A stretch of DNA of 64,000 nucleotides, taken from assembly GCA_046734455.1 (NCBI GenBank), contig JBKPRJ010000055.1, positions 14,151 through 78,150 of the forward strand. The letters run 5' to 3'. Within the stretch, counting starts at the first letter, position 1; every line of letters begins with the position of its first letter. The notes under the pieces are model-generated. The model worked only from the letters and a program-made list of their open reading frames with translations, was not told where the DNA came from and did no database searches. The stretch is from Actinomycetota bacterium. GTDB taxonomy: Bacteria; Actinomycetota; Thermoleophilia; Gaiellales; Gaiellaceae. This document shows, in pieces, positions 7,719 through 34,457 of this stretch. Position numbers and translations under genes: made by a program.

Positions 7719-8990
7719 TCACTCGTCGACCTCCCAGACGGTGGTCGCCTCGACGTCTGTCTCGAGCATGTCGAGTGCGCGCTCCACGATCCGCCGCCGC
7801 TCCTCCTCGTCGAGCCCGAACGGATGCGTGATCGCCGGACCGCGCACGATGCGGTTCGCTCCGATCATCGTGGCAACGGTCGGAAGCGACGTCACGTAGA
7901 CCGCCGGTATTCCCGCCCGCTCGATCTCCTTCGCCAGCACTGCCCCGCAGCGCGTGCCCGTCCCTCAGGTGCCGGAGAGGAGGACGGCTTGTACGCCCGC
8001 GTCGCGAAGCTCGCCCGCGATCTCCTGCCCGAATTTCGTCGCGACGACGACGGGCGTGCCGTTCCCCGTCGTCGTGTAGAGCGACTCGTGGACGCGGCCC
8101 ACGCGCCCAGCGCGCTCGAGGCCGCGAACCGTGTCGAGCGGGACGAGCCGGTTCGGATCCTCGTTCGCGAGGGTGACGTCGAAGCCGCCGTGCACCGACT
8201 CGTACCGGCCCGACGCGAGTGTCTCGGCGCCGCCGAGGTCGTAGCGGAACCAGCCCTGCGCACGCACGGACTGAAGGTGGTCCGGATTTCCCTGCGGCAC
8301 ACACCCGGCCTCGGTCACGAGCGCCACGAGCGCGGACGACAGGTCGGCAACCGGAGGCGGCGGCTCGACGCGGTCCATGTCTCCGCCGACCTCGGTTCGC
8401 GTCTCGCCGGCGAGCTTCGCAAGGAGGAGCCCGACCGCGCGCTCGGCGCCGGTCTTCTCGGCGAAATAGTTGCGCCGGAACCCGCGCACGAGGTAGCCCT
8501 CCTCGTCGGCCGAGCCGAGCTCGCGGCCCGACGCGAGCGCGGAGGTAAGAGCCCCGAGCCGCGGGAGAGCGTCGCGCATCCCGGCAACGTTCACGGCCGT
8601 CGGGACGACGTAGGCGGCACCTGCCTCCCCCACACCCGGGTTCTCCTCGTGCATGGCCGCGACGGCCGGAATTCCCCGCTCGGCGGCGGCCGCGGCGAGC
8701 CGCGCACATGCGTAGCCGTATCGGCCGGAGCCGAACGCCGGCCCGGCGACGAGGACGTCCGGTTCGTGCTCGGCCAGCATCTCGAGCAGCGTCGCCAAAG
8801 CCTCCTCCTCGTGCTCGGCGAAGTAGTCGTCCCCGCAGGCGAGCGTCGCGACGATCTCGACGCCTTGGAGCTCGGCGGCGAGCCCGCGCCCGGGCCCGAC
8901 CGCTCCCTCGAGCCGCGTCGGCGGCGTCTCGGCCTGCTCCTCCCCGCCCAGGCCGGCGAAGAACTGGTTCAGGTAGTGGACGGCCTTCAC
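7719..8990 (-). CDS. Glycine/sarcosine/betaine/D-proline reductase family selenoprotein B (GrdB/GrdF/GrdH-like), with in-frame UGA (Sec) at 7965-7967
   Basis: Track ORFs 7965..9278 and 7719..7940 share one frame, and TGA 7965-7967 is the only interruption. The start is GTG 8988-8990 (VKAVHYLNQFFAGLGGEE) in a GTGA overlap with the upstream gene. Read-through gives LLSGT-U-GTGTRCGAVLAKEIERAGIPAVYVTS, the family Sec block. The product is 423 codons with Sec at about residue 342. Confidence 0.85.
7937..7967 (-). other. Sec UGA codon plus candidate SECIS hairpin
   Basis: UGA lies at 7965-7967. A hairpin, GCGCUGC-GGG-GCAGUGC (7 bp including one G-U, G-rich apical loop), spans 7937-7953 and starts 11 nt after the UGA. 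Confidence 0.55.
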
Positions 8991-16597: not shown

Positions 16598-16639
16598 GCC
16601 CGGAGGTCTACCAGAAGCGCGGCGGCGCTAACCCTTCAG

Positions 16640-16713
16640 TCGGGACGGCCGGATTCGAACCGGCGGCCTCCTGCTCCCAAAGCAGGCGCGCTACCAGGCT
16701 GCGCCACGTCCCG
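16640..16713 (-). tRNA. tRNA-Pro (anticodon UGG)
   Basis: The 74-nt cloverleaf was folded by hand. Acceptor stem CGGGACG/CGTCCCG, D stem GCGC/GCGC, anticodon stem CCTGC/GCAGG with loop TTTGGGA, T arm GCCGG-TTCGAAT-CCGGC, discriminator A. No encoded CCA. Confidence 0.95.
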
Positions 16714-26992: not shown

Positions 26993-27310
26993 ATGGCAGA
27001 CACGATCACAACTGACACATTCGACACCGAGGTGCTCGGGAGCGAAAGCCCCGTGCTCGTCGACTTCTGGGCGGAATGGTGCGGCCCGTGCCACGCGGTG
27101 GCACCGGTGCTCGACCAGATCGCCGAAGAGCGCTCGGATCTGCGGCTGGTAAAGGTCAACATCGACGAGGAGCCCGAGCTCGCGCGCCGCTACGGCGTGA
27201 TGAGCATCCCCACGATGATCCTCTTCGACTCCGGCGAGCCCAAGGCCGCCGCGGTCGGCGCACAGCCGAAGACGATGCTCGAGAAGTCACTCGGCCTGGT
27301 CGAGGCCTAG
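26993..27310 (+). CDS. trxA: Thioredoxin
   Basis: 105 aa with the canonical FWAEWCGPC active site. Confidence 0.95.
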   Translation: MADTITTDTFDTEVLGSESPVLVDFWAEWCGPCHAVAPVLDQIAEERSDLRLVKVNIDEEPELARRYGVMSIPTMILFDSGEPKAAAVGAQPKTMLEKSLGLVEA

Positions 27311-30925: not shown

Positions 30926-32125
30926 GTGAAACAGATCTATCCGGCCACGATCACCGGGAAGAGCTTCGCGCCCGGCGGCAGCGTGCTCGACCACAACTTC
31001 GGGGCGGGTGAGCAGTACACCCTCGGAGTCGAGGAGGAGTACATGCTCCTCGACGGCGAGAGCTTCGATCTCGTCCAGCACGTCGACACCGTGCTCTCAG
31101 CCGCCCAGAACGGCGAGCTGACCGACCGCATTGGGCCGGAGCTCATGCAGTCCGTCGTCGAGATCTCGACCCCGGTGTGCAAGAGCGTCGCCGACGTGGA
31201 CGCCGAGCTCCGCAAGCTCAGGGGCCTCGTCACCGGGATCGCCGGCGAACGCGGGATGCGCGTCGGTTCCGCGGGCACTCACCCGTTCAGCCTGTTCGAG
31301 CGCCAGCGGATCACGGCCCGCGACCGCTACCGCAACCTCGTCGACCAGCTGCAGTACGTGGCTCGGCGCGAGCTCATCTTCGGGCTCCACATCCACGTCG
31401 CCGTGGACGACCCGGAGAAGGCGATCAAGGTGACGAGCGCGCTCCTCCTGCACCTGCCGGACTTCCTCGCGCTCTCCGCGAACTCACCGTTCTGGCGCGG
31501 CGAGGCGACGGGGCTCGCGTCCAGCCGGCAGATGGTCTTCGCCGCGTTCCCGCGCTCGGGGCCCCCGCCCCGCTTCCGCGACTACGCCGACTACGCGGAG
31601 GTCGTCGGCCAGCTGGAGAAGACCGGCTGCATCGCCGACTACACGCACATTTGGTGGGACATCCGGCTCCACCCCCGCTTCGGCACGATCGAGGTGCGCG
31701 TGATGGATGCGGTCACGCGCGTCGAGGAGACAGTTGCGCTCACCGCCTACGTACAGGCGCTCGTGAAGCACTACGCCGAGCGTTTCGAGTCCGGCGGCGA
31801 GCTGCCTTCGTTCCACCGCATCCTCATCTCCGAGAACAAGTGGCTCGGCGCGCGCTATGGGCTCGAGGCGCCGGTCATGGACCTCGCGACCGGCCGCAGG
31901 AACCGCGTGCCGATCGCGCAGCTCATCCGGCGCACGCTCAGGGACATCGAGCCGCACGCGCGCGAGCTCGGCGCCGAGCGCGAGCTCGAGGGCATCCGCG
32001 CGATCCTCGGGAAGGGAAACGGCGCCGACCGCCAGCTCCGCGTCTTCAACGCGAACCGCGACATCGTCGAGGTCGCGAGCGAGATCGCAGACGCGACCGA
32101 GGCGGCAGCGGTGGCTGCGAGATGA
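30926..32125 (+). CDS. Carboxylate-amine ligase (YbdK / glutamate-cysteine ligase family 2)
   Basis: YTLGVEEEYMLLD...ELMQSVVEISTPVC...ELIFGLHIHVAV...ANSPFW...IWWDIRLHPRFGTIEVRVMD is the GCS2 signature. The start is GTG 30926, or alternatively GTG 30983. Confidence 0.9.
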   Translation: MKQIYPATITGKSFAPGGSVLDHNFGAGEQYTLGVEEEYMLLDGESFDLVQHVDTVLSAAQNGELTDRIGPELMQSVVEISTPVCKSVADVDAELRKLRGLVTGIAGERGMRVGSAGTHPFSLFERQRITARDRYRNLVDQLQYVARRELIFGLHIHVAVDDPEKAIKVTSALLLHLPDFLALSANSPFWRGEATGLASSRQMVFAAFPRSGPPPRFRDYADYAEVVGQLEKTGCIADYTHIWWDIRLHPRFGTIEVRVMDAVTRVEETVALTAYVQALVKHYAERFESGGELPSFHRILISENKWLGARYGLEAPVMDLATGRRNRVPIAQLIRRTLRDIEPHARELGAERELEGIRAILGKGNGADRQLRVFNANRDIVEVASEIADATEAAAVAAR

Positions 32126-32583
32126 TCGGCGTCGGCGACGCCGTCCCTGCAGCTCGAGTGTGGCTGACACCTCGTGATGACGCGGAGCTCCGCGAGCTCG
32201 CCGAGGGCTCGCCTTACCTCCTGCTCTTCTACCTCTTCGACTGGTCGAGCACCTGAACGGACGAGTTCACGCTCCTGCGTGACAGGGGCCAGGAGTTCGA
32301 GGAGGCGGGCGTGAAGGTCTTCGGGATCTCGCGCGACAGCCCTTGGTCGCACGTGGCCTGGGCCCAGGCGCTCGACCTCTCGACTGCGCTCCTCTCCGAC
32401 TGGAACGGCGAGGCCGTGGCGGGCTTCGGCATCGGCCATGACTACCGGGGAATGGAAGGCGTCGCCGAGCGCAGCGCGTTTCTCGTCGACGGAGACGGCA
32501 TCATCCGCGGGACATGGCGGTACGAGCCTGGCCAAGTCCCCGACTTCGACGAGCTGCTGGCAGCCGCCCGCTCGCTCTCGTAA
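32122..32583 (+). CDS. AhpE-like 1-Cys peroxiredoxin with Sec (UGA 32254-32256) at the peroxidatic position
   Basis: ATG 32122 is in an ATGA overlap with the ligase stop. The frame continues through TGA 32254-32256 into track ORF 32311..32583 (same frame, the intervening 54 nt are open). The joined 153-codon product reads LLLFYLFDWSST-U-TDEFTLLRD...VFGISRDSPWSHVAW...LLSDWNGE...AFLVDGDGIIRG. Confidence 0.85.
32254..32296 (+). other. Sec UGA codon plus candidate SECIS region
   Basis: Two mutually exclusive hairpins follow the UGA. One is UCACGC/GCGUGA (32267-32282, loop UCCU). The other is CUCCUG/CAGGAG (32272-32295, 12-nt loop containing GGGG). Confidence 0.5.
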
Positions 32584-34457
32584 CCCTCCTCTACGCGGCC
32601 GCGGCGGTCGCGGCGACCTGGCCGGCGATCGGCTCGTTCGGAAGCGCGTTCATGGCGAGCGGCGGCGAGGGTCACGGCGCCCCGCCGGCCGGCGACCACC
32701 TGCAGACCCTGTACCGGTTTTGGCTCGTCGGCCACCAGCTGTCGAACGGCGCCGCGCCCTGGCTGGACCCGTACAGCTTCCAGCCGCTCGCCGAGCAGCA
32801 GACCGTGCTCGGCGGCTGGCCCTTCGGACTCATCTACTGGCCGCTCGGCGCGATCTTCGGGCCGATCGTCGCATGGAACCTCCTGCTGCTCGGGACGATC
32901 GTCGCCGCAGGCCTCGTCACCTTCCTCTGGCTGCGGGCGCTCGACCTCGGCCCGTGGGCAGCGGCGATCGGGGGCCTCGCCTTCGCGGTCGCTCCTTACC
33001 GGCTCGACCAGAGCGCGTCCGGCCACCTGCTCGGCTGGGCCGCGCTGTTCATCCCGCTCGCGCTCCTCGGGATCGAGCGGGTGCGGGTCGCCGCCACCCC
33101 GCGGCGGGCGCACGGCTGGGGGGCGCTCACCGCCGTGTCCCTCGCCTCGATCGCGCTCTCCGGGCAGCTGCACCTCGCGCTCGGCGCGATTCCGTTCGTC
33201 CTCGCCTACGCGCTCGTGCGCCGCGGGCGGATCCCGCTTCTCTGGACCGCGGTCGGGTCCATCGTCGCAGCGGTGGTCGGGCTCGTCGTCCGCTACACGC
33301 TCATCGCGGGCTCGGCGGAAGACCAGGGGCGTTCGCTCGCGGACGTGCGCCGGTTCCAGGCGGAGTGGGCCGACCTCTTGAACCGCTGGCATCGCCCCGG
33401 AAGCGAGGAGTTCGTCTACTTCGGCTGGCTGACACCCTTGCTCGCCGTGGCCGGACTCGTGGTCCTCTGGCGGGGGCGGCGCTGGCTGGCCGTGGTGCTC
33501 GGGCTGGGCGCTCTGCTTCCGATCCTCTTCACCGTCGGCACGAACCTGCCGACCTACTCGCCGCTCTGGCACGCGCTGCCGCCGCTCCGCTTCCCGCGGG
33601 TGCCGGAGCGCTTCATGCCGATCGCCGACCTCGCACTGGCCGCGCTACTCGCGTTCGCCGCCGCGGAGCTCGTGCAAAGAGCCGGGCGGCGCGGCGCCGC
33701 CCTGGCCGCCGGGCTACTCGTGCTCGTCGCCCTCGACCTCGGCGCACAGCCGGTCTCGGCGACCGCGGCCGACCCGGACAATGCGGCGTTCGCGGCCGTC
33801 GCGCCCGGCCGGATCCTCGATCTGCCGCTCTTCGATCCGGGGATCCACTACGGCTCGGTCTACGACTACTACGAGCTACAGGCTCCGCGGGAGCGCCCGC
33901 AGGGGTACAACACGCTCGCGCCGCGGAGCGCCTATTCGTTCGCGTTCACGTACAACCGGATCGGGTGCGGCGTCTGGGAGCCCGGCGACGAGGCGACGCT
34001 CGAGCGGCTCGGCGTCGAGAACGTCCTCCTCCAAACGGGCGTCTACCAGCAGGCGAGAGAGCGGTCGGCGTGGTTTGCCTGGCGCGAGCTGGAGCAGCAA
34101 GGGTGGGCAGCGGTGAAAGAGGACGGCGCAGTCACGCTTTTCACGCGCGGCTCTGCGCCGCGTACCCCGACGGTCCCCGAGCCCAGCCACGACCAACCCG
34201 TCTTCTGTCAGGGCTGGCGCGACGGGAGAACGACCGAGCTGCAGGCGCCGTTCTGGGTCTACGGGACCGGCCCGTTCACCCTGGTGCTCACGTCGGAGGA
34301 GCCCATCCGCGCAACCATCACGGTCAACGGGCAGATCCTGTACGAGGACCGCGTCGACGGGCGCGCGACCGCCCAGCTCGAGTTCCCCGAGGAGGAGTGG
34401 CACGCGGTCGTCCTCGACGCGACGAGCCCGGGGCTCGGACTCGCGTTCGTGCGCTAG
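32514..34457 (+). CDS. Large polytopic membrane protein (possible GT-C-type glycosyltransferase-like); hypothetical
   Basis: 647 aa. About 12 N-terminal TM helices are followed by a soluble C-terminal domain. It overlaps the peroxiredoxin 3' end by 70 nt if ATG 32514 is used. Confidence 0.75.
   Translation: MAVRAWPSPRLRRAAGSRPLALVTLLYAAAAVAATWPAIGSFGSAFMASGGEGHGAPPAGDHLQTLYRFWLVGHQLSNGAAPWLDPYSFQPLAEQQTVLGGWPFGLIYWPLGAIFGPIVAWNLLLLGTIVAAGLVTFLWLRALDLGPWAAAIGGLAFAVAPYRLDQSASGHLLGWAALFIPLALLGIERVRVAATPRRAHGWGALTAVSLASIALSGQLHLALGAIPFVLAYALVRRGRIPLLWTAVGSIVAAVVGLVVRYTLIAGSAEDQGRSLADVRRFQAEWADLLNRWHRPGSEEFVYFGWLTPLLAVAGLVVLWRGRRWLAVVLGLGALLPILFTVGTNLPTYSPLWHALPPLRFPRVPERFMPIADLALAALLAFAAAELVQRAGRRGAALAAGLLVLVALDLGAQPVSATAADPDNAAFAAVAPGRILDLPLFDPGIHYGSVYDYYELQAPRERPQGYNTLAPRSAYSFAFTYNRIGCGVWEPGDEATLERLGVENVLLQTGVYQQARERSAWFAWRELEQQGWAAVKEDGAVTLFTRGSAPRTPTVPEPSHDQPVFCQGWRDGRTTELQAPFWVYGTGPFTLVLTSEEPIRATITVNGQILYEDRVDGRATAQLEFPEEEWHAVVLDATSPGLGLAFVR

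What the first reader, a model, noticed from the sequence alone, without database searches (positions are those of the whole stretch)
32122..32583. AhpE-like 1-Cys peroxiredoxin with UGA (Sec) exactly at the peroxidatic position
Seen: ATG 32122 opens a frame that the track ends at TGA 32254-32256. The next track ORF (32311..32583) is in the same frame and the intervening 54 nt are open. The joined 153-codon product is MIGVGDAVPAARVWLTPRDDAELRELAEGSPYLLLFYLFDWSST-U-TDEFTLLRDRGQEFEEAGVKVFGISRDSPWSHVAWAQAL...LLSDWNGE...AERSAFLVDGDGIIRG... It contains no cysteine at all. Two alternative hairpins lie 10-15 nt downstream of the UGA.

Known: this is the AhpC/TSA fold. Its layout matches mycobacterial AhpE as I recall it (LLVFFPLAFTGIC45QGELDQLRD...AISVGPPPTH..W...PLLSDFWPHG...NRGTFVVDRSGIIRF). 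The UGA falls on residue 45, the position of the peroxidatic Cys. Sec-containing Prx-like proteins are known but rare.

Inference: this is a Sec-dependent 1-Cys-type peroxiredoxin in a ~70% GC genome. With no resolving thiol of its own, it would depend on an external reductant.
Basis: partly seen in the sequence, partly recalled or inferred. Interest (0 to 1): 0.75.

Follow-up and report, generated by a model that had tools for sequence, protein, structure and literature searches.

The report
Selenocysteine peroxiredoxin gene in Gaiellaceae
This is almost certainly a real gene for a small peroxide-detoxifying enzyme that has selenocysteine (encoded by UGA) instead of its catalytic cysteine; the enzyme type is already known, but here it is conserved, with its own RNA insertion signal, across a whole family of soil actinobacteria where annotation pipelines cut it in two.

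Summary
ATG 32122 to TAA 32583 is one frame of 153 codons, broken only by TGA 32254-32256, and the product contains no Cys. The joined product is a complete AhpC/TSA domain. The TGA sits on the peroxidatic column, where Cys orthologs read FDWSSTC.

Of 80 species-level genomes, mostly labelled Gaiellaceae, 78 carry TGA at this codon and 2 carry TGC. All have intact frames. Directly downstream, 14 nt (TCCTGCGTGACAGG, 32273-32286) are invariant. Synonymous divergence there is 0.017, against about 0.42 on either side. The block forms a hairpin (stem 32271-77/32283-89, loop CGUGA) with the published features of a bacterial SECIS. The two Cys orthologs lack the block.

TGA is otherwise the commonest stop codon in the window. 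No Sec machinery lies in the window. However, MAGs labelled Gaiellaceae encode selA and selB, and related actinobacterial contigs also carry tRNA-Sec.

Sec-peroxiredoxins are an established selenoprotein family, so this is a new member of a known kind. "AhpE-like" holds for fold, size and thiol count, but archaeal BCP-type Prxs are closer by sequence. The most interesting lead is translational coupling to a YbdK-type carboxylate-amine ligase.

The parts
32122..32583 (+). Prx(U) coding sequence: 153 codons with Sec at codon 45, stop TAA 32581-32583
   Evidence: Single frame. Pfam AhpC-TSA covers residues 4-129 across the TGA. Orthologs of the same length and frame occur in 86 loci.
32254..32256 (+). 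In-frame UGA (Sec45) at the peroxidatic position
   Evidence: TGA in 78 of 80 species genomes and TGC in 2. Cys sits at this column in 82 full-length database homologs and W in 6 where the caller read TGA as Trp.
32271..32289 (+). SECIS-like hairpin inside the coding sequence: 5' arm GCUCCUG 32271-32277, loop CGUGA 32278-32282, 3' arm CAGGGGC 32283-32289. It starts 14 nt after the UGA.
   Evidence: Consensus fold and pair counts: 97% of cells paired, against 31-57% when the partner is slid; pair 18-36 shows G-C to C-G (5 sequences) and U-A (1) changes. Local MFE is -11 kcal/mol.
32273..32286 (+). Invariant 14-nt core TCCTGCGTGACAGG
   Evidence: Identical in all 79 distinct TGA-bearing sequences. 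Codons +6 to +11 use one codon each. pS is 0.017 there, against 0.41-0.43 in the flanks. The 13-mer CCTGCGTGACAGG was not found outside this gene in the DNA held at the time. The motif is absent from the two TGC orthologs.
32245..32247 (+). Ser42, the T/S of the T/SxxU active-site motif (the Pro at -7 is Leu38 here)
   Evidence: S42 is invariant in the alignment of Cys orthologs. The window sequence reads YLFDWSSTU.
32470..32472 (+). Arg117, matching the conserved active-site Arg of peroxiredoxins (ERSAFLVD)
   Evidence: R117 is invariant in alignment A2.
30926..32125 (+). Upstream YbdK-family carboxylate-amine ligase (GCS2). Its TGA stop overlaps the Prx ATG (ATGA at 32122-32125). The start coordinate is approximate.
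   Evidence: Pfam GCS2 E=8.5e-56. NCBIfam NF010039 scores 404 bits against a 371-bit cutoff. It is directly upstream in about half of the 87 loci and within a few kb in most others.
32652..34457 (+). Downstream membrane protein, weakly PTPS_related, 69 nt after the Prx stop. The start coordinate is approximate.
   Evidence: Begins +66 to +114 nt after the Prx stop in most loci. Pfam PTPS_related is weak here (E=7e-4) but recorded for the orthologs.
26996..27310 (+). Thioredoxin about 5 kb upstream, a candidate reductant by inference only
   Evidence: TIGR01068 scores 118 bits against a 97-bit cutoff. A Trx is found 3-10 kb upstream in many loci.

Best explanation
The gene at 32122-32583 encodes a 153-residue peroxiredoxin whose peroxidatic residue is selenocysteine. 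During translation, the hairpin at 32271-32289 (loop CGUGA, 14 nt after the UGA) would be bound by SelB carrying Sec-tRNA(Sec), so UGA 32254-32256 is read as Sec instead of stop. This recoding step is inferred from comparative evidence, not shown directly. The protein folds as a small BCP/AhpE-type Prx, with U45 in the first turn of the active-site helix and Ser42 and Arg117 nearby. The selenolate would reduce a peroxide and become a selenenic acid. Because the protein has no Cys, it must then be recycled by an external thiol. That could be a thioredoxin or a low-molecular-weight thiol, possibly one made by the ligase gene whose stop codon overlaps the Prx start. Both the reductant and the substrate are inferred.
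For: Anatomy and domain:
- One frame and no Cys.
- A complete AhpC/TSA domain spans the TGA.

Conservation of the TGA:
- 78 of 80 species genomes have TGA at the same codon and 2 have TGC. Start, length and frame are conserved down to about 60% identity.
- Cys occupies that column in 82 database homologs, and 64 of these have only that one Cys.

The RNA element:
- A 14-nt block is invariant, and synonymous change there is suppressed about 25-fold.
- It forms a hairpin with one compensatory pair and a small G-containing apical loop. This matches the published description of bacterial SECIS elements (PMC1088965).
- The motif is absent from the TGC orthologs.

Code and machinery:
- TGA is the commonest ordinary stop in the window, including the stop of the gene immediately upstream.
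- SelA is named under '[Gaiellaceae bacterium]' by NCBI, and selA-selB loci occur in MAGs of that family.
- tRNA-Sec sits beside selA-selB on related actinobacterial contigs.

Fold:
- The AF2 model of the 78%-identical Cys ortholog has pLDDT 94.9 and places residue 45 at the start of helix 43-54.
- TM is 0.93 to Bcp4 and 0.89 to AhpE.
Against: - No selA, selB, selD or tRNA-Sec lies in the window or in the 1.28 Mb of Prx loci.
- No single MAG accession was shown to hold both the Prx(U) gene and the sel genes.
- selD was not looked for outside the window and the Prx loci.
- No Rfam family matches the hairpin.
- Covariation is thin, because the stem hardly varies. Only one pair has double changes.
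- The canonical Pro of PxxxT/SxxC is Leu here.
- There is no experimental evidence of Se incorporation or of peroxidase activity.
Confidence: 0.9

Rival explanations
1. The UGA is decoded, but not as Sec. It would be read through by a near-cognate or suppressor tRNA (Trp or Cys), with the conserved hairpin acting as a generic read-through stimulator.
For: Sec machinery was not shown in the same genome. Six public gene calls print W at this site.
Against: - The column is the catalytic Cys of the family, and only C or TGA ever occurs there. Trp could not carry out peroxidatic chemistry.
- Repeated TGA/TGC interchange (at least 9 switches) is the known signature of Sec/Cys pairs (PMC1794560).
- The family's MAGs encode SelA and SelB.
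- The W calls are most simply explained as a gene-caller artefact, because TGA is an ordinary stop in this genome.
Confidence: 0.05
2. The UGA is a true stop. The locus would then hold two separate genes, a 44-aa peptide and a protein of about 90-104 aa, as public annotations show.
For: Gene callers report a 44-aa ORF and a 104-aa or 90-aa AhpC-TSA ORF.
Against: - The domain is continuous across the TGA.
- In the model, residues 1-44 supply strands 12-14, 20-22 and 32-36 and helix 23-29, so the C-terminal piece would lack these and the catalytic residue.
- The internal start is not conserved. The codon read as M or V in the 104-aa calls is ACG in the window, and the first start in the window is 18 codons after the TGA.
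- Cys orthologs are single 152-156-aa proteins.
Confidence: 0.03
3. It is a pseudogene or a sequencing or assembly error at 32254-32256.
For: A single in-frame stop in a single window could be either.
Against: The same TGA appears in 78 independently assembled species genomes and in many metagenome contigs. None has a frameshift or a second stop. The protein sequence is conserved on both sides of the TGA and pN is below pS.
Confidence: 0.01

Closest known systems
Sec-containing peroxiredoxin ('Prx' selenoprotein family; PF00578 / COG1225 Bcp; T/SxxU), including PrxU of Eubacterium acidaminophilum
   Same: It has the AhpC/TSA fold, with Sec replacing the peroxidatic Cys in a T/SxxU motif. The SECIS lies in the coding sequence just after the UGA. 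Cys orthologs are common, and Cys/Sec switching is frequent (PMC1794560, PMC13188914, PMC9312934).
   Different: It is not the PrxU equivalog: NF040737 scores 40.5 bits against a 270-bit cutoff. It is shorter (153 aa), has no Cys at all, and has Leu instead of the motif's Pro. It is found throughout an actinobacterial soil family for which I found no report of Sec use. Earlier examples are mostly from anaerobic Deltaproteobacteria and Clostridia (PMC1794560, Table 3).
Mycobacterium tuberculosis AhpE (Rv2238c; PDB 1xxu, 4x0x, 5id2)
   Same: It is 153 aa and a 1-Cys-type Prx with the peroxidatic residue at position 45. The profile match is full-length (73.9 bits). TM is 0.89 and rmsd 1.9 A. Both come from Actinomycetota and both need an external reductant.
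   Different: AhpE uses Cys rather than Sec. Identity is only about 29%. Archaeal BCP-type Prxs score higher by sequence.
Archaeal BCP/PrxQ-type peroxiredoxins (Aeropyrum pernix 2cx3/4gqf, Sulfolobus solfataricus Bcp4 3hjp, S. tokodaii 2ywn)
   Same: These are the best sequence matches (E=1.8e-18 for the single sequence, 97.9 bits for the profile). Bcp4 is the best structural match (TM 0.93/0.90, rmsd 1.5 A).
   Different: They are Cys enzymes from archaea. No residue after U45 in this protein is a Cys, so there is no resolving Cys of the atypical 2-Cys PrxQ kind. The bacterial BCP equivalog NF006960 scores only 41 bits against a 140-bit cutoff.
Escherichia coli fdhF-type bacterial SECIS
   Same: It is a hairpin within the ORF a short distance after the UGA, with a small apical loop containing G-U (loop CGUGA). 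The general consensus is described in PMC1088965. The details of the fdhF element are from my own knowledge.
   Different: The stem begins 14 nt after the UGA, compared with 11 nt in fdhF as I recall it. No bulged U is evident. The sequence is unrelated, and no Rfam model matches it.

Membership tests
Sec-containing peroxiredoxin (Prx selenoprotein family) | AhpC/TSA (PF00578) domain that is intact only if the UGA is translated | tested here: met
   PF00578 E=1.3e-23, residues 4-129 mapped to profile positions 1-122 of 124
Sec-containing peroxiredoxin (Prx selenoprotein family) | In-frame UGA aligned with the peroxidatic Cys of homologs, within a T/SxxU motif | tested here: met
   WSSTU in this gene against WSSTC in orthologs. 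TGA in 78 and TGC in 2 of 80 genomes.
Sec-containing peroxiredoxin (Prx selenoprotein family) | Bacterial SECIS: a conserved stem-loop just downstream of the UGA with a small apical loop containing G | tested here: met
   14 nt invariant, synonymous sites frozen, 5-7 bp stem, loop CGUGA, absent from the Cys orthologs. The criterion comes from PMC1088965.
Sec-containing peroxiredoxin (Prx selenoprotein family) | The host genome encodes selA, selB, selC and selD | tested here: inconclusive
   None lies in the window or the Prx loci. selA and selB are present in MAGs labelled Gaiellaceae, and tRNA-Sec on related actinobacterial contigs. No genome was shown to hold both the Prx(U) gene and the sel genes. 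selD was not looked for outside the window and the Prx loci.
Sec-containing peroxiredoxin (Prx selenoprotein family) | Selenium is actually incorporated and the protein has peroxidase activity | not testable with these tools
   Needs 75Se labelling, mass spectrometry and enzymology.
PrxU (NCBIfam NF040737) | Score at or above the curated cutoff of the equivalog model | tested here: not met
   40.5 bits against a cutoff of 270
AhpE subfamily of peroxiredoxins | Closer to AhpE than to members of other Prx subfamilies | tested here: not met
   With the single sequence, BCP-type 2cx3 gives E=1.8e-18 and AhpE 1xxu gives 2.7e-11. With the profile, the scores are 97.9 and 73.9 bits. By structure, Bcp4 has TM 0.93 and AhpE 0.89.
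AhpE subfamily of peroxiredoxins | Small single-domain 1-Cys Prx (about 153 aa, no resolving Cys) | tested here: met
   153 codons, no Cys besides U45. 64 of 82 Cys orthologs have a single Cys.
Peroxiredoxin superfamily (catalytic core) | PxxxT/SxxC(U) motif plus the conserved Arg, with the peroxidatic residue in the first turn of the active-site helix | tested here: inconclusive
   Ser42, U45 and Arg117 are present, and these positions are invariant in the orthologs. Residue 45 lies at the start of helix 43-54 in the AF2 model of the Cys ortholog. However, the motif's Pro is Leu38 in this clade.
BCP/PrxQ (bacterial thiol peroxidase Bcp, NF006960) | Score at or above the curated cutoff; many members have a resolving Cys 5 residues after the peroxidatic Cys (the latter from my own knowledge) | tested here: not met
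   41 bits against a cutoff of 140. Residue 50 is Thr, not Cys.

The most novel reading that the evidence does not exclude
The YbdK-type carboxylate-amine ligase, whose stop codon overlaps the Prx start (ATGA), makes a gamma-glutamyl-cysteine-like low-molecular-weight thiol that recycles the cysteine-free selenoperoxiredoxin. The pair would then be a self-contained two-gene selenoperoxidase system, a functional analogue of glutathione peroxidase plus glutathione built on a Prx fold. A related possibility is that the absolute invariance of the 14-nt SECIS core across a whole bacterial family reflects an unusually strict or additional role, for example regulation in response to selenium.
Probability: 0.15. 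Interest if true: 0.6.

Novelty: new member of a known kind. Interest (0 to 1): 0.35.

Why it matters
- It corrects a systematic annotation error. Public gene calls split this gene into 44-aa and 104-aa pieces or print Trp at the active site.
- It shows that an abundant soil actinobacterial family probably uses selenocysteine, in a conserved antioxidant enzyme. I found no paper reporting this.
- It gives a clean, lineage-specific SECIS (loop CGUGA) that could be used to find the rest of the Gaiellaceae selenoproteome.
- It offers many natural Sec/Cys ortholog pairs for comparing selenium and sulfur catalysis in a 1-Cys Prx.
- It does not reveal a new kind of system.

Tried and rejected
- **Whole-window Rfam and tRNA scans.** They found only tRNA-Pro and tRNA-Leu, with no tRNA-Sec and no SECIS family. 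A permissive Rfam scan of 32150-32400 gave only chance miRNA hits.
- **Folding 67 nt after the UGA.** This was uninformative (z=0.03) and did not pick the conserved hairpin. Only the comparative analysis did.
- **SelA, SelB and SelD searches of the window and Prx loci.** Motif searches (SelA, SelD and SelB-like GTPase patterns) and a tblastn with real SelA and SelB sequences were all negative. tRNA-Sec was absent from 60 Prx loci.
- **Looking for other selenoprotein genes.** I searched for in-frame TGAs with coding signal on both sides in the window, the Prx loci and the sel loci. No convincing candidate appeared besides this gene.
- **Tying Prx(U) and sel genes to one genome.** WGS prefixes of SelA-bearing records (VAXT, JBKPQP, DASYGK, DATCOE, JAWVDD, JAWVDG, WNGO) did not match any prefix in the Prx list. 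No contig length was shared between the two sets.
- **A possible physical link through a shared ABC exporter.** It could not be confirmed: only the exporter is shared, not its flanks.
- **Exact look-up of the window's 90-aa ORF.** It is not on record.
- **Literature searches.** Searches for Gaiella or Thermoleophilia with selenocysteine or selenoprotein returned nothing that looked relevant from titles and abstracts.
Full report
**1. The observation**

ATG 32122 opens a frame that meets TGA at 32254-32256, continues open, and ends at TAA 32581-32583. The 153-codon product has no cysteine. The ATG overlaps the TGA stop of the upstream gene (ATGA, 32122-32125). The window is 68% G+C.

**2. What the protein is**

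With U replaced by C, Pfam AhpC-TSA matches residues 4-129 (E=1.3e-23) and Redoxin matches residues 4-144. The domain is therefore intact only if the UGA is translated.

No NCBIfam equivalog reaches its cutoff. The experimentally founded Sec-peroxiredoxin model PrxU (NF040737) scores 40.5 bits against a cutoff of 270.

Against solved structures, the best sequence matches are archaeal BCP-type Prxs:
- Single sequence: 2cx3 at 1.8e-18, then 3hjp and 2ywn, ahead of M. tuberculosis AhpE (1xxu) at 2.7e-11.
- Profile of 60 Cys orthologs: 97.9, 88.2 and 85.4 bits for the three archaeal proteins, and 73.9 bits for AhpE.

An AlphaFold model of the closest Cys ortholog (P0001, 78% identical) is confident, with pLDDT 94.9. 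It puts residue 45 in the first turn of helix 43-54. It superposes on S. solfataricus Bcp4 (TM 0.93, rmsd 1.5 A) and on AhpE (TM 0.89, rmsd 1.9 A).

Ser42, U/C45 and Arg117 correspond to invariant columns in the orthologs. The Pro of the canonical PxxxT/SxxC motif is Leu in this clade.

**3. Is the TGA real and conserved?**

A protein search returned two classes of hit: full-length proteins of 152-160 aa, and many 104-aa fragments at 85-91% identity covering only the part after the TGA.
- 82 of the 120 hits have Cys at the column, and 64 of these have only that one Cys.
- 6 hits have W, which is TGA read as Trp by a gene caller.
- 25 hits are post-TGA fragments.

On metagenome contigs the gene is called as a 44-aa ORF followed 12 nt later by a 104-aa AhpC-TSA ORF.

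A scan of one genome per species returned 80 loci. Their records are mostly titled Gaiellaceae; the rest are titled more broadly (Thermoleophilia, Actinomycetes, Actinomycetota, Actinobacteria) or, in one case, Binatia. In 78 of them the codon is TGA, and in 2 (L052, L074) it is TGC. Almost all share the same start position, and all have similar length (151-164 residues) and an intact frame, down to about 60% protein identity.

On a rough NJ tree the Sec and Cys forms interleave, with at least 9 switches. This is the pattern described for Prx selenoproteins (PMC1794560).

Sequencing error and pseudogene are excluded. TGA reassignment is also excluded: TGA is the commonest ordinary stop in the window (16 of 30 coding-like ORFs), including the stop of the gene immediately upstream.

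**4. The insertion signal**

In the 83 distinct TGA-bearing sequences analysed, every sequence that encodes the majority residue at codons +6 to +11 uses a single codon (CTC CTG CGT GAC AGG AGC). Equally invariant Leu, Ser and Arg residues elsewhere use three or four different codons.

Fourteen nucleotides, TCCTGCGTGACAGG (window 32273-32286), are identical in all 79 distinct 60-mers. Mean pairwise synonymous difference is 0.017 in this segment, against 0.43 upstream and 0.41 downstream.

The block forms a hairpin. RNAalifold finds a 5-bp core. The 7-bp version (window 32271-77 with 32283-89, loop CGUGA) has these properties:
- 97% of cells are paired, against 31-57% when the partner is slid.
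- One pair varies U-A to U-G.
- One pair shows G-C to C-G (5 sequences) and U-A (1 sequence).

Locally it is the minimum-energy structure, at -11 kcal/mol in the window. The two TGC orthologs have different codons here, and their segments fold no better than shuffled controls. The 13-mer core was not found outside this gene in the DNA held at the time.

A stem-loop just after the UGA with a small, G-containing apical loop is the published description of bacterial SECIS elements (PMC1088965). No Rfam model matches it.

**5. Sec machinery**

Nothing was found in the window or in the 1.28 Mb of Prx loci.

I scanned metagenomes for the SelA PLP-lysine motif written in GC-rich codons. The contigs whose composition most resembled Gaiellaceae carry three elements:
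- selA (TIGR00474, 529 bits against a 268-bit cutoff),
- selB (TIGR00475, 367 bits against a 242-bit cutoff),
- tRNA-Sec with anticodon UCA.

A second SelA search returned proteins that NCBI names under '[Gaiellaceae bacterium]' (P0271, P0303, P0307, P0357). The loci of three of them (P0271, P0303, P0307), in GCA_035999905.1, GCA_036564885.1, GCA_033857655.1 and GCA_033857515.1, hold selA-selB with SelB-specific domains. An ABC exporter next to these sel loci is 80-82% identical in protein to one that lies just downstream of Prx(U) in L025, L026 and L054.

So the family has the machinery. I could not show both genes in one genome, because no accession prefix or contig length was shared. selD was not looked for outside the window and the Prx loci.

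**6. Context and mechanism**

The gene order is conserved:
- thioredoxin about 5 kb upstream,
- beta-lactamase-fold protein,
- RidA,
- YbdK-family carboxylate-amine ligase (GCS2; NF010039 at 404 bits against a 371-bit cutoff),
- Prx(U),
- a weakly PTPS_related membrane protein,
- MFS transporter,
- PAS-GGDEF-EAL protein.

The ligase is directly upstream in about half of the loci and within a few kb in most others. The membrane protein follows the Prx stop by 66-114 nt in most.

What is shown:
- a conserved recoded UGA at the catalytic position,
- a conserved hairpin after it,
- a Prx fold.

What is inferred:
- SelB-dependent Sec insertion,
- peroxide reduction through a selenenic acid,
- recycling by an external thiol.

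Thioredoxin is the conventional candidate for that thiol. The translational coupling to a gamma-glutamyl-ligase homolog makes a low-molecular-weight thiol a testable alternative.

**7. Comparison and novelty**

Sec-containing peroxiredoxins (PF00578/COG1225, T/SxxU) are listed among established bacterial selenoproteins. PrxU of Eubacterium acidaminophilum was shown experimentally, and Cys-to-Sec conversions are documented (PMC13188914, PMC9312934, PMC1794560).

This gene meets the bioinformatic criteria of that family, but it is not a PrxU equivalog. Within the Prx superfamily it lies between the archaeal BCP-type and AhpE groups.

Two things are new: the lineage, and how pervasive the gene is. 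It is present with a frozen SECIS in almost every Gaiellaceae species sampled. I found no report of Sec use in that family, and annotation pipelines split the gene.

The finding is solid and useful but not surprising to a specialist. I rate it a new member of a known kind, with interest 0.35.

Noticed in passing
window 32122-32583 and orthologs (P0013, P0021, P0027, P0042, P0050, P0066; L001-L006): Public gene calls mis-handle this gene. It appears either as a 44-aa ORF plus a 104-aa or 90-aa AhpC-TSA fragment, or as a full-length product with Trp printed at the Sec site, apparently from a TGA=Trp translation table.
   Followed up: yes
L156 9025-13093; L207 10001-18390; L208, L209, L212, L213-L217: Sel loci with conserved order in MAGs labelled Gaiellaceae and in related actinobacterial contigs: (ABC exporter) - MoaE/ThiS - Peptidase_M50 - LOG-family (LDcluster4) - (PAS) - SelA - (O-methyltransferase in some) - SelB - tRNA-Sec. 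No selD is seen in these stretches.
   Followed up: partly
L025 4097-5881, L054 12341-14125, L026 12316-12903; L111 787-2577; L213 1-1283; L214 1-1273: An ABC exporter with 80-82% protein identity lies next to the Prx(U) neighbourhood in some genomes and next to the sel cluster in others. This may hint that the two loci are close in some genomes.
   Followed up: partly
L016 (DATAOV010000042.1) and L034 (DATAOV010000129.1): One MAG (SMAG_U7054) carries two different Prx(U) loci, at 80% and 64% identity to the window protein. These are either paralogs or a mixed bin.
   Followed up: no
L007 (JBEVNX010000215.1): The record is titled 'Candidatus Binatia bacterium', yet its Prx(U) is 87% identical to the window protein, a level otherwise seen here only in loci titled Gaiellaceae or Thermoleophilia. 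The contig is probably mis-binned.
   Followed up: no
window 7965-7967, minus strand: A TGA separates two same-frame stretches with coding-like GC3, 582 codons before it and 81 after (context ...LLSGT*GTGTRCG...). They are probably two adjacent genes in one frame. I did not examine this further.
   Followed up: no
window 32122-32125: The TGA stop of the YbdK-family ligase overlaps the Prx ATG (ATGA), which implies translational coupling. 33 of the 87 loci have ATGA or GTGA at the Prx start.
   Followed up: partly
window 16639-16713 (minus strand); L046 70-144; L052 659-732: A tRNA-Pro (UGG) lies 9-16 kb upstream of the Prx gene in the window and in two relatives. This suggests longer-range synteny across the family.
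   Followed up: no
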